The notes under the pieces are model-generated. The model was not told where the DNA came from, ran no database searches, and saw nothing but the letters and a program-made list of their open reading frames with translations. From the UHGV virus genome UHGV-0020221: a stretch of DNA of 20,399 nucleotides. The stretch is one strand, 5' to 3'. The DNA is from a virus. Positions 17,389 to 17,535 of the stretch are shown here, in pieces; the first letter of the stretch is position 1; each line of letters starts with the position of its first letter. The translations under genes were made by a program, and so were the position numbers.

Positions 17389-17449
17389 TCTTGATGCCTC
17401 GCTTTTGTGAGTGGATCGGCATCTTATTATCTGCTGATTGCATCCTCAA

Positions 17450-17468
17450 TAAGACCACGGTGGTCGTA
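17450..17468. promoter_or_regulatory. Mnt operator-like palindrome (O_mnt) in the mnt-tailspike intergenic region
   Basis: taaGACCACgGTGGTCgta: 13-bp perfect dyad GACCAC-G-GTGGTC (17453-17465) with central CCACGGTGG identical to the core of the P22 mnt operator as recalled (GTCCACGGTGGAC); 62 bp upstream of the mnt start and 68 bp upstream of the tailspike start. Confidence 0.5.
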
Positions 17469-17535
17469 TTTTTTTGATTAATAATGCATCACTGCGGCAA
17501 TGCTGCGGCGATTCCTTGTATCTGGAGCAAATTAA

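What the first reader, a model, noticed from the sequence alone, without database searches (positions are those of the whole stretch)
17389..17535. Mnt operator fused directly to the tailspike gene; arc and ant are absent
The mnt gene and an operator-like palindrome with the conserved CCACGGTGG core are present, but the genes Mnt normally controls in P22 (arc, ant) are missing. The operator now sits 68 bp upstream of the tailspike ATG. Either this is an immI remnant left by deletion of arc-ant, or Mnt now regulates a promoter reading into the tailspike gene, which would put tailspike expression from the prophage under repressor control.
Basis: partly seen in the sequence, partly recalled or inferred. 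Interest (0 to 1): 0.5.

Follow-up and report, generated by a model that had tools for sequence, protein, structure and literature searches.

The report
Orphan Mnt repressor cassette beside tailspike
This is the already described "mnt-only" form of the phage P22 second immunity region, common in E. coli and Salmonella prophages: the repressor gene, its operator and probably its own weak promoter are kept and conserved, but no promoter reads from the operator into the tailspike gene.

Summary
An 83-aa Mnt homologue lies at 17137-17388 (-). A 17-bp palindromic operator, AAGACCACGGTGGTCGT, lies at 17451-17467, 68 bp before the tailspike ATG at 17536. There is no arc, ant or sar.

The arrangement is not new. 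The same junction occurs in phages L, ST64T, ST160, SE1 and Gally, in about 57 of 80 IMG/VR relatives, and in 107 of 5426 complete E. coli genomes. The literature calls it an mnt-only "ant moron" and already asks whether mnt there is a remnant or has a new role.

New evidence here:
- mnt is under purifying selection (dN/dS 0.095 between two mnt-only lineages).
- The operator arms are near-invariant while the central base varies freely.
- The operator sits 1 bp from the -35 of the Pmnt homologue, as in P22.
- The Pant homologue has lost the key -10 bases, and no rightward sigma-70 promoter is detectable.

The region is therefore best read as a conserved, probably autoregulated orphan repressor cassette. 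The tailspike gene is most likely transcribed by late-operon read-through. Mnt control of a tailspike promoter is not supported.

Side finding: Mnt residue 6 (Gln versus His) tracks a symmetric operator base change.

The parts
17128..17147 (.). Bidirectional intrinsic terminator just past the mnt stop codon (tMNT equivalent). It ends mnt transcripts on the - strand and is also terminator-like on the + strand.
   Evidence: Terminator scan. RNA folds give -13.9 and -13.8 kcal/mol with z -4.1 and -3.2, and 0 of 200 shuffles fold as well. The homologous site is annotated tMNT in HK620.
17137..17388 (-). mnt: an 83-aa ribbon-helix-helix repressor. Its N-terminal strand is GRDDPQFNLRLP (Gln at Mnt position 6, where P22 has His). 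It also has the Mnt C-terminal tetramerisation domain.
   Evidence: ORF list. Pfam Arc plus Repressor_Mnt. It is 76% identical to P22 Mnt and 100% identical to phage Gally Mnt. dN/dS is 0.095 against the ST160 type.
17397..17400 (-). mnt Shine-Dalgarno sequence GAGG, 8 nt before the ATG.
   Evidence: Read directly from the sequence. The column is conserved in all 36 intergenic variants.
17421..17449 (-). Positional homologue of P22 Pmnt: -35 TTGAGG (17449-17444), 17-nt spacer, -10 TAAGAT (17426-17421). It matches the consensus at 8 of 12 positions, so a weak promoter is inferred, not shown.
   Evidence: Weight-matrix score 11.7 bits, the best in the region on either strand. The geometry is the same as P22 Pmnt TTGAGA-17-TATCAT. 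It falls below the threshold of the tool's consensus scan. In the ST160/L type it is TTGTGG-17-TATGAT, which keeps TTG and A2/T6.
17451..17467 (.). Mnt operator (Omnt equivalent) AAGACCAC-G-GTGGTCGT. It is palindromic about 17459, and the extended arms span 17448-17470. It lies 1 bp from the -35 of the Pmnt homologue.
   Evidence: Inverted repeat. The arms are near-invariant and the centre base varies A/C/G/T across 36 variants. The same operator type is found upstream of arc-ant with Gln6 Mnt. There is no second copy in the window, in the prophage from the nin region rightward, or in the whole Gally genome.
17468..17487 (+). Variable filler at the junction (GTATTTTTTTGATTAATAAT). It takes the place of P22 arc-sar-ant-t_ant, is rich in indels among relatives, and includes a T-run.
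   Evidence: Alignments. The operator hairpin plus T-run is flagged as terminator-like, but it folds weakly: -6.3 kcal/mol, z -0.8.
17488..17535 (+). Conserved tailspike leader, the 'boundary sequence' shared with P22, HK620, L and ST160. It includes the SD GGAG at 17524-17527.
   Evidence: Alignment. CUS-3 annotates the equivalent stretch as boundary sequence bsq1.
17536..19527 (+). Tailspike gene: a P22-type head-binding domain followed by a pectate-lyase-like receptor-binding domain.
   Evidence: ORF list. Pfam Head_binding E 4e-66 and Pect-lyase_RHGA_epim E 4e-11.

Best explanation
The interval is the regulatory region of an 'mnt-only' ant moron, a reduced immI region of a P22-like (Lederbergvirus) prophage of E. 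coli. It contains a Gln6-type Mnt repressor gene, its cognate 17-bp palindromic operator, and the homologue of the weak leftward promoter Pmnt. The -35 of that promoter abuts the operator exactly as in P22. Together with the bidirectional terminator after mnt, these parts form a self-contained cassette.

The rightward promoter Pant has been lost together with arc, sar and ant. The operator therefore no longer controls any detectable promoter on the tailspike side.

Inferred steps:
- The tailspike gene is transcribed as the last gene of the late operon. Q-antiterminated polymerase reads through the moron, as described for P22-like phages.
- The Mnt tetramer binds 17451-17467, and the only local effect is on its own promoter (autoregulation, sign unknown).
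- mnt is kept by selection, most plausibly because it acts in trans. For example, it could silence the ant operon of incoming or co-resident relatives that carry an operator of the same specificity.
For: Shown:
- Mnt identity comes from Pfam and homology.
- The centre of the operator lies 10 bp from the start of the -35 hexamer in both the window and P22.
- In 36 unique intergenic variants from 69 loci, the mnt-proximal 77 columns are near-invariant, the operator centre base is free, and the sequence after the operator is rich in indels.
- Window versus ST160-type mnt gives Sd 21, Nd 9 and dN/dS 0.095. The clade consensus sequences differ at 17 synonymous and 6 non-synonymous codons.
- The two mnt-only lineages share the same junction, so that selection acted while the region was already mnt-only.
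- The N-terminal DNA-binding half and the operator stay together while the C-terminal half of Mnt is swapped (phage L, locus L190).
- No rightward promoter is found in the window, whereas the same scans find Pant in P22, in CH4794 and in locus L090.
- No second operator is found in the window, in the prophage from nin to attachment site, or in the whole Gally genome, whose Mnt is 100% identical.
- Full mnt-arc-ant modules with Gln6 Mnt and GTGGT-type operators exist, including one in an E. coli prophage.

From the literature:
- The region between gene 16 and the tailspike gene is a variable 'ant moron'.
- ST64T, ST104 and Para1 carry only mnt plus a gene of unknown function (PMC2629481).
- Phage L lacks ant and arc but keeps an mnt homologue (PMC8022706).
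Against: - The Pmnt homologue matches the consensus at only 8 of 12 positions and is not called by the consensus scan. Its weight-matrix score, 11.7 bits, is only about the 95th percentile of shuffles. No transcription or binding data exist for this variant.
- The right arm of the window's operator has one mismatch (…GTGGTCGT versus AAGACCAC).
- The trans-acting role is pure inference. The full immI modules carrying exactly the AAGACCAC-N-GTGGTCT operator come from non-E. coli contigs whose closest cultured relative is an Erwinia phage.
- The E. coli full module (CH4794) has a different outer half-site (GTGGTTCA) and Lys instead of Asn at Mnt position 8.
- Within the window-like clade pN/pS is 0.36, and a few copies are damaged, so the function is dispensable.
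Confidence: 0.7

Rival explanations
1. Mnt represses a promoter in 17389-17535 that reads into the tailspike gene, so tailspike expression from the prophage is under Mnt control.
For: - The operator lies between mnt and the tailspike gene, 68 bp from the ATG. In P22 the same operator does repress a rightward promoter (annotation).
- In relatives where a ~280-bp insert separates the operator from the functional tailspike gene, mnt is damaged more often: 5 of 10 loci have three or more changes or a stop codon. In the direct class, 0 of 45 window-like copies do. The sample is small and not phylogenetically independent.
Against: - No rightward sigma-70 promoter is found in the window by the consensus scan or by the weight matrix (best 5.8 bits, shuffle median 8.5).
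- The Pant homologue TCGGCA-17-TGCATC lacks A2 and T6 of the -10.
- Across the mnt-only class those -10 positions vary (TGCATC, TGTATC, TATATC), while the opposite-strand Pmnt hexamers keep their key bases.
- The same scans detect Pant in P22, CH4794, N7 and L090.
Confidence: 0.07
2. The mnt gene and operator are a functionless remnant of a degraded immI region that has simply not yet decayed.
For: - Without ant there is no known target, and no other operator copy exists in the phage genome.
- The phage L paper offers this as one possibility (PMC8022706).
- HK620 shows that the region can decay to mere terminator remnants.
- Two IMG/VR copies carry a premature stop, and others have changes in conserved residues.
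Against: - dN/dS is 0.095, with dS 0.51, between two lineages that share the mnt-only junction.
- 67 of 69 Gln6-class copies are intact.
- The operator arms are far more conserved than the adjacent filler, while the central base drifts freely.
- The mnt-proximal intergenic differs at about 14% of positions between window and ST160, against about 37% at synonymous sites.
Confidence: 0.12
3. Operator-bound Mnt, together with antisense transcription from Pmnt, acts as a roadblock or attenuator. It would tune how many late-operon polymerases reach the tailspike gene, with no promoter involved.
For: [quoted passage not shown]
- The operator lies on the late transcript path just upstream of the conserved tailspike leader.
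- A weak operator hairpin plus T-run is present in this sub-lineage.
- mnt is damaged more often in loci where the tailspike start is displaced.
Against: - The T-run is absent from the ST160/L type, and the hairpin is not stable (z -0.8).
- Sf6 lacks an ant moron altogether and HK620 has lost mnt, yet both still express a tailspike gene (PMC2629481).
- There is no direct evidence of any kind for this mechanism.
Confidence: 0.1

Closest known systems
Phage P22 immI region (mnt / Omnt / Pmnt-Pant / arc / sar / ant)
   Same: - The Mnt protein family, with both Pfam domains and 76% identity.
- A 17-bp palindromic operator with the inner CCAC-N-GTGG bases.
- The operator lies 1 bp from the -35 of the leftward mnt promoter homologue.
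- The location is between the gene-16 homologue and the tailspike gene, and the tailspike leader is the same.
   Different: - There is no arc, ant, sar or t_ant; about 1.3 kb is absent.
- The Pant homologue is inactivated at the -10.
- The operator half-site is GTGGTCT instead of GTGGACC, and Mnt residue 6 is Gln instead of His.
- The mnt 5' region is about 5 bp longer.
mnt-only 'ant moron' of Salmonella phages L, ST64T, ST104, ST160 and SE1 (PMC2629481, PMC8022706)
   Same: - The same gene order, with mnt directly beside the tailspike gene.
- The same junction, the same Gln6 N-terminal strand (MGRDDPQFNLRLPY), and the same operator AAGACCAC-N-GTGGTCT.
- The same Pmnt homologue.
   Different: - The window has 11-12 extra bp (the T-run filler) after the operator.
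- One base differs in the outer right arm.
- Mnt is 92% (ST160) or 70% (L) identical. The L difference is concentrated in the C-terminal half.
- The host and the tailspike receptor domain are different.
Escherichia phage Gally and vB_EcoP-720R6, and about 107 E. coli chromosomal prophages
   Same: - Mnt is 100% identical in Gally, and the 801-bp region is 95% identical.
- The region is 100% identical in E. coli LD67-1, IR53017 and CUVET19-970.
- It is annotated 'Mnt repressor' or 'Arc family DNA-binding protein' next to the tailspike gene.
   Different: Only the central operator base, a few filler bases and the tailspike C-terminal domain differ.
HK620 ant-moron remnant
   Same: The position is the same, and both the tMNT terminator and the tailspike leader are retained.
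   Different: HK620 has lost mnt and the operator altogether but keeps a t_ant remnant. The window keeps mnt and the operator but has no t_ant.
Full immI with Gln6 Mnt (E. coli CH4794 prophage; IMG/VR loci L090, L130 and L286 class)
   Same: Gln at Mnt position 6 and a GTGGT-type operator half-site. The CTCAAT (-35 of Pmnt) abuts the operator.
   Different: These loci retain a strong Pant (TTGACA-17-TACATT or CATTAT), arc and ant. Their outer half-site or the rest of the Mnt sequence differs.

Membership tests
Mnt repressor protein family | N-terminal Arc-like ribbon-helix-helix DNA-binding domain | tested here: met
   Pfam PF03869 Arc, E 2.8e-22, residues 3-50.
Mnt repressor protein family | C-terminal Mnt tetramerisation domain | tested here: met
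   Pfam PF11423 Repressor_Mnt, E 2.2e-18, residues 53-80.
Mnt repressor protein family | Sequence-specific binding to the adjacent palindromic operator | not testable with these tools
   Support is indirect only: the arms are conserved with a free centre base, and residue 6 tracks operator position 5 across lineages. An EMSA or footprint is needed.
P22-type immI region (complete) | Palindromic Omnt next to the divergent mnt promoter | tested here: met
   The palindrome at 17448-17470 lies 1 bp from the TTGAGG -35 homologue. P22 has the same geometry.
P22-type immI region (complete) | Pant promoter reading away from mnt across Omnt | tested here: not met
   No rightward promoter is found. The positional homologue TCGGCA-17-TGCATC matches at 6 of 12. 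Positive controls are found in P22 and CH4794.
P22-type immI region (complete) | arc gene downstream of Omnt | tested here: not met
   tblastn with P22 Arc hits only the mnt ORF itself.
P22-type immI region (complete) | ant antirepressor gene | tested here: not met
   tblastn with P22 Ant gives no hit in the window. A KilAC-domain antirepressor gene exists in the nin region of the same prophage, outside the window, with no operator nearby.
P22-type immI region (complete) | sar antisense RNA | tested here: not met
   Rfam gives no match at gathering threshold anywhere in the window.
mnt-only ant moron (ST64T / L / ST104 type) | Lies between the gene-16 homologue and the tailspike gene of a P22-like late operon | tested here: met
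   The ejection protein ORF is 14098-15945 and the tailspike is 17536-19527. The RefSeq context in LD67-1 agrees.
mnt-only ant moron (ST64T / L / ST104 type) | mnt is the only immI gene and the tailspike start lies within about 150 bp of the mnt start | tested here: met
   The intergenic is 147 bp in the window and 135 bp in L and ST160. The alignment is homologous across the junction.
mnt-only ant moron (ST64T / L / ST104 type) | Accompanied by small genes of unknown function in the moron | tested here: met
   ORFs 15959-16495 (-), 16479-16844 (+) and 16858-17052 (-) have no Pfam match above the curated cut-off. They are annotated hypothetical in RefSeq.

The most novel reading that the evidence does not exclude
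Orphan mnt-operator cassettes may be kept in P22-like prophages as trans-acting 'anti-antirepressor' immunity. The resident Mnt would silence the ant operon of incoming or co-resident relatives of the same operator specificity. Natural Mnt lineages would then fall into specificity classes set largely by residue 6: His6 with GTGGA half-sites, Gln6 with GTGGT half-sites. That would be a natural counterpart of the engineered Mnt 'master residue' specificity changes.
Probability: 0.25. Interest if true: 0.45.

Novelty: already known. Interest (0 to 1): 0.2.

Why it matters
The arrangement matters little in itself. It is a common variant that is already annotated and discussed in the literature.

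The small gain is that the published open question, remnant or new function, can now be framed more sharply. The sequence evidence favours a maintained repressor-operator pair with no local target promoter on the tailspike side.

If the trans-immunity idea were confirmed, it would explain why many prophages keep a repressor without its antirepressor. It would also supply natural operator-specificity classes for a well-studied model DNA-binding protein.

Tried and rejected
- **Second Mnt targets.** I scanned for further operator copies in the window, in 40.8 kb of the identical LD67-1 prophage and its flank, and in the whole Gally genome. None was found at up to 2-3 mismatches.
- **Pattern scan of IMG/VR** for AAGACCACNGTGGTCT. 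54 of 120 hits had no mnt nearby and are at the level expected by chance. Only the 66 hits next to mnt or a tailspike gene were informative.
- **GTDB genome scan** with a Mnt profile. It returned only 6 loci, useful for the residue-6 comparison but too few for statistics.
- **Terminator reading of the operator hairpin plus T-run.** Rejected because the fold is weak (-6.3 kcal/mol, z -0.8) and the T-run is absent in the ST160/L type.
- **Hairpin at 17486-17503.** It is not significant (z -1.45).
- **The Mnt 'master residue' papers** (PMC55749, PMC140065, PMC506813). They are not held in the library. The link between residue 6 and operator positions 16/17 therefore rests on my memory and on a one-sentence summary in PMC1184061.
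- **E. coli phages with ant morons** (CUS-3, 611R6, N7, E212), checked for the window-type operator upstream of ant. None has it.

Full report
**What is in the sequence.** The - strand ORF at 17137-17388 encodes an 83-aa protein. It matches Pfam Arc (E 2.8e-22) and Repressor_Mnt (E 2.2e-18). It is 76% identical to P22 Mnt and 100% identical to the annotated Mnt of Escherichia phage Gally.

The + strand ORF at 17536-19527 is a tailspike. It has the P22 head-binding domain (E 4e-66) and a pectate-lyase-like body.

The 147-bp intergenic region carries an inverted repeat, AATAAGACCAC/GTGGTCGTATT, at 17448-17470 and centred on 17459.

P22 Arc and Ant find nothing in the window except the Arc-like fold of mnt itself. 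Rfam finds no sar or any other family.

**Comparison with P22.** In P22 the order is: mnt start, Pmnt (TTGAGA-17-TATCAT, leftward), Pant (TTGACA-17-TATATT, rightward and overlapping Pmnt), Omnt (AGGTCCACGGTGGACCT), arc, sar, ant, t_ant, then gene 9.

Aligning the window with P22, HK620, L, ST160 and Gally gives the end points. Similarity to the mnt side of P22 stops a few bp after the operator. It resumes about 47 bp before the tailspike ATG, in the leader that all these phages share.

About 20 bp (17468-~17487) is filler with no P22 counterpart. About 1.3 kb of P22 (arc through t_ant) has no counterpart in the window.

**The arrangement is common and already described.** An mnt gene directly beside the tailspike gene is found in several places:
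- Salmonella phages ST160, SE1, L and ST64T, and E. coli phages Gally and vB_EcoP-720R6. The more divergent Sf101/IME10 type (Shigella phage Sf101 and E. coli phage IME10) has it too.
- Of the 80 best IMG/VR relatives of this Mnt, about 57 have the tailspike ATG 135-148 bp from the mnt ATG.
- 107 of 5426 complete E. coli genomes hold at least 80% of window 17100-17900, and three are 100% identical.
- In E. coli LD67-1 the element is a P22-like prophage ending next to dacD.

Villafane et al. (PMC2629481) named the region between gene 16 and the tailspike gene the 'ant moron'. They state that ST64T, ST104 and Para1 carry only mnt plus a gene of unknown function.

**Remnant or maintained?** Several results argue for maintenance.
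- *Shared junction.* Window-type and ST160-type mnt share the same junction, so both have been mnt-only since they diverged.
- *Purifying selection.* They differ by 21 synonymous and 9 non-synonymous changes. This gives dS 0.51, dN 0.048 and dN/dS 0.095. Clade consensus sequences differ at 17 synonymous and 6 non-synonymous codons.
- *Intact copies.* Of 69 Gln6-class copies, 67 are intact.
- *Pattern of intergenic conservation.* I aligned 36 distinct intergenic variants. The first 77 columns (mnt leader, Pmnt homologue, operator) are almost invariant. The central operator base takes all four values. The stretch after the operator is variable and rich in indels. The tailspike leader is conserved again.
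- *Less divergence than synonymous sites.* Window and ST160 differ at about 14% of the mnt-proximal columns. At synonymous sites they differ at about 37%.
- *Co-inheritance.* Phage L and locus L190 keep the same N-terminal DNA-binding half and operator but carry different C-terminal halves. The binding domain and its site are inherited as a unit.

Against strict necessity, within the window-like clade pN/pS is 0.36. A few copies carry a premature stop or changes at conserved residues.

**Is there a promoter towards the tailspike gene?** The tool's consensus scan detects both Pant (11 of 12) and Pmnt (10 of 12) in P22. It also detects both (10 of 12 and 9 of 12) in a full-immI prophage of E. 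coli CH4794. It detects nothing in window 17300-17600.

My approximate sigma-70 weight matrix gives these rightward scores:
- P22 Pant: 16.7 bits
- N7: 13.2 bits
- A Gln6 full-immI locus (L090): 12.5 bits
- The window, best rightward: 5.8 bits, below the shuffle median of 8.5

The positional homologue of Pant is TCGGCA-17-TGCATC. It lacks the A at position 2 and the T at position 6 of the -10. Those positions also vary within the class (TGCATC, TGTATC, TATATC).

On the other strand, the positional homologue of Pmnt is TTGAGG-17-TAAGAT (17449-17421). It scores 11.7 bits, the best in the region. It keeps TTG and A2/T6, and it lies 1 bp from the operator as in P22.

That homologue is only 8 of 12, though. 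It is not called by the consensus scan, and its score is only near the 95th percentile of shuffles. A weak mnt promoter is therefore inferred, not shown.

So the half of the divergent promoter pair that served arc-ant has decayed, and the half that serves mnt has been kept. This argues against Mnt control of a tailspike promoter. No sequence evidence points to any route for tailspike expression other than read-through of the late operon. That is the established route in P22-like phages (PMC2629481), and the prophage encodes a Q-family antiterminator.

**Other possible roles of the palindrome.** The operator plus the following T-run is flagged as terminator-like. The hairpin is weak, however (-6.3 kcal/mol, z -0.8), and the T-run is absent from the ST160/L type. 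By contrast, the stem-loop at 17128-17147 after mnt is a convincing bidirectional terminator (z -4.1 and -3.2). It corresponds to HK620 tMNT.

**What could Mnt regulate?** No further operator copy exists in the window, in the prophage from the nin region rightward, or in the complete Gally genome. A local target other than its own promoter is therefore unlikely.

Full mnt-arc-ant modules with Gln6 Mnt do exist:
- Six IMG/VR loci have exactly AAGACCACGGTGGTCT downstream of a TTGACA promoter and upstream of arc. Their closest cultured relative is an Erwinia phage, and they are not found in E. coli genomes.
- A second class (MSR[D/E]DPQFKLRLPA, operator TGAACCACGGTGGTTCA) includes an E. coli prophage in strain CH4794.

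A trans-acting role is therefore possible. The resident Mnt could silence the ant operon of related phages, as a P22 prophage does to superinfecting P22. No cognate partner in the same host has been shown.

CUS-3 carries two tandem mnt-type genes. One is a P22-type His6 Mnt with no P22-type operator within 7.4 kb. Orphan Mnt genes thus recur.

**Side finding: residue 6 and the operator.** I read half-sites from the centre outwards.
- Every His6 Mnt examined goes with GTGGACC. These are P22, epsilon34, UPF_BP1, Pluralibacter, Pectobacterium and dozens of IMG/VR loci.
- Every Gln6 Mnt goes with a T at the fifth position. The window, L and ST160 have GTGGTCT. L090 has GTGGTCT. The CH4794 class has GTGGTTC. 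Phlomobacter has GTGATAT. N7 and Acinetobacter have GT(A/G)CTA. The Sf101 type has TGGTA.

The change is symmetric in both arms.

PMC2726951 gives GTGGACC as the best P22 Mnt half-site. PMC1184061 notes that a single amino-acid change in Mnt alters the preference mainly at two adjacent operator positions. From memory, that residue is position 6 and those operator positions are 16/17, which include the base that differs here. I could not read the primary papers.

All His6 cases may be one lineage, so the number of independent events is small.

**Verdict.** The arrangement is an already known, widespread mnt-only ant moron.

The 'remnant' reading is right about origin. It is wrong if taken to mean decay. 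The 'Mnt controls the tailspike' reading is not supported.

The best explanation is a conserved, probably autoregulated orphan repressor cassette whose selective value is still unknown. A trans-acting role is the leading guess.

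Noticed in passing
window 17368-17373 (codon for Mnt Gln6) and 17451-17467; loci L004, L090, L211, L212-L217, L301: Mnt residue 6 tracks a symmetric operator base. His6 goes with half-site GTGGACC. Gln6 goes with a T at the fifth position (GTGGTCT, GTGGTTC, GTGATAT, GTGCTA, TGGTA) in at least five sequence-divergent Mnt groups. The Gln6 strand PQFNLR is the same as in P22 Arc.
   Followed up: partly
IMG/VR loci L026, L037, L054-L058, L063, L067, L072 (region between mnt and tailspike): Ten relatives keep the operator and a truncated original tailspike start (ATGACAGATATTATAAATAG). 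About 280 bp of AT-rich insert and a different tailspike (MPDITPNVV...) follow. An in-frame upstream ORF, (M/V)NRRLFFKTIASLS..., has a Tat-signal-like RRxFFK motif. mnt is damaged more often in this class: two copies have an R53 stop and three have three or more changes.
   Followed up: partly
locus L034 (IMG/VR 2541047745_000011), about 220-920 bp past the mnt start: An IS1-like element (InsB-like ORF) interrupts the tailspike gene about 20 codons in. The mnt gene and operator are unchanged.
   Followed up: no
locus L218 (phage CUS-3) 1474-2003: There are two tandem mnt-type genes. The distal one is a P22-type His6 Mnt (MARDDPHFNFRMPLEV...). No P22-type operator lies within the 7.4-kb locus (up to 3 mismatches). 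This is a second kind of orphan Mnt.
   Followed up: partly
locus L088 63-788 (E. coli LD67-1 prophage, nin region, upstream of the window): The same prophage encodes a KilAC-domain antirepressor-like protein between ninF and a DUF1364 gene. No Mnt-type operator is found near it or anywhere else in the 40.8-kb locus.
   Followed up: partly
loci L006 (phage L), L002 (ST160) and L190, mnt gene: There is a mosaic breakpoint inside mnt. Residues 1-39 and the whole intergenic region are nearly identical between L and ST160. The C-terminal half is strongly diverged, and L190 has a third C-terminal variant.
   Followed up: partly
window 17492-17513; P22 locus L004 1096-1117 and 1207-1228: The window has a short tandem-like duplication, CTGCGGCAATG / CTGCGGCGATT, in the tailspike leader. 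P22 carries two copies of the boundary motif ATTCACCGTAGCCA(C/T)GCT about 110 bp apart. These are possible recombination substrates for gain and loss in the moron.
   Followed up: no
window 16833-17102: A second bidirectional terminator-like stem-loop lies at 16833-16852. A 64-aa - strand ORF at 16858-17052 has its own promoter-like site (TTGACT-17-AATATT, 17102-17074) and a sub-threshold YjzC-like Pfam hit. Its position matches that of P22 orf59a / HK620 HkcD.
   Followed up: no
window 19604-20399: After the tailspike gene there is only one 100-aa ORF with no Pfam match. In LD67-1 the next annotated gene is host dacD. The right end of the window is therefore at or near the prophage-host junction.
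   Followed up: no
loci L250-L252, L272-L276 (IMG/VR, His6 Mnt with a 57%-identical Ant): In four of these loci (L250-L252, L272) no P22-type palindrome was found within 130 bp of mnt, and the best palindrome is an unrelated AGTTAGTATCTCTAACT. Their operator arrangement may differ from P22.
   Followed up: no
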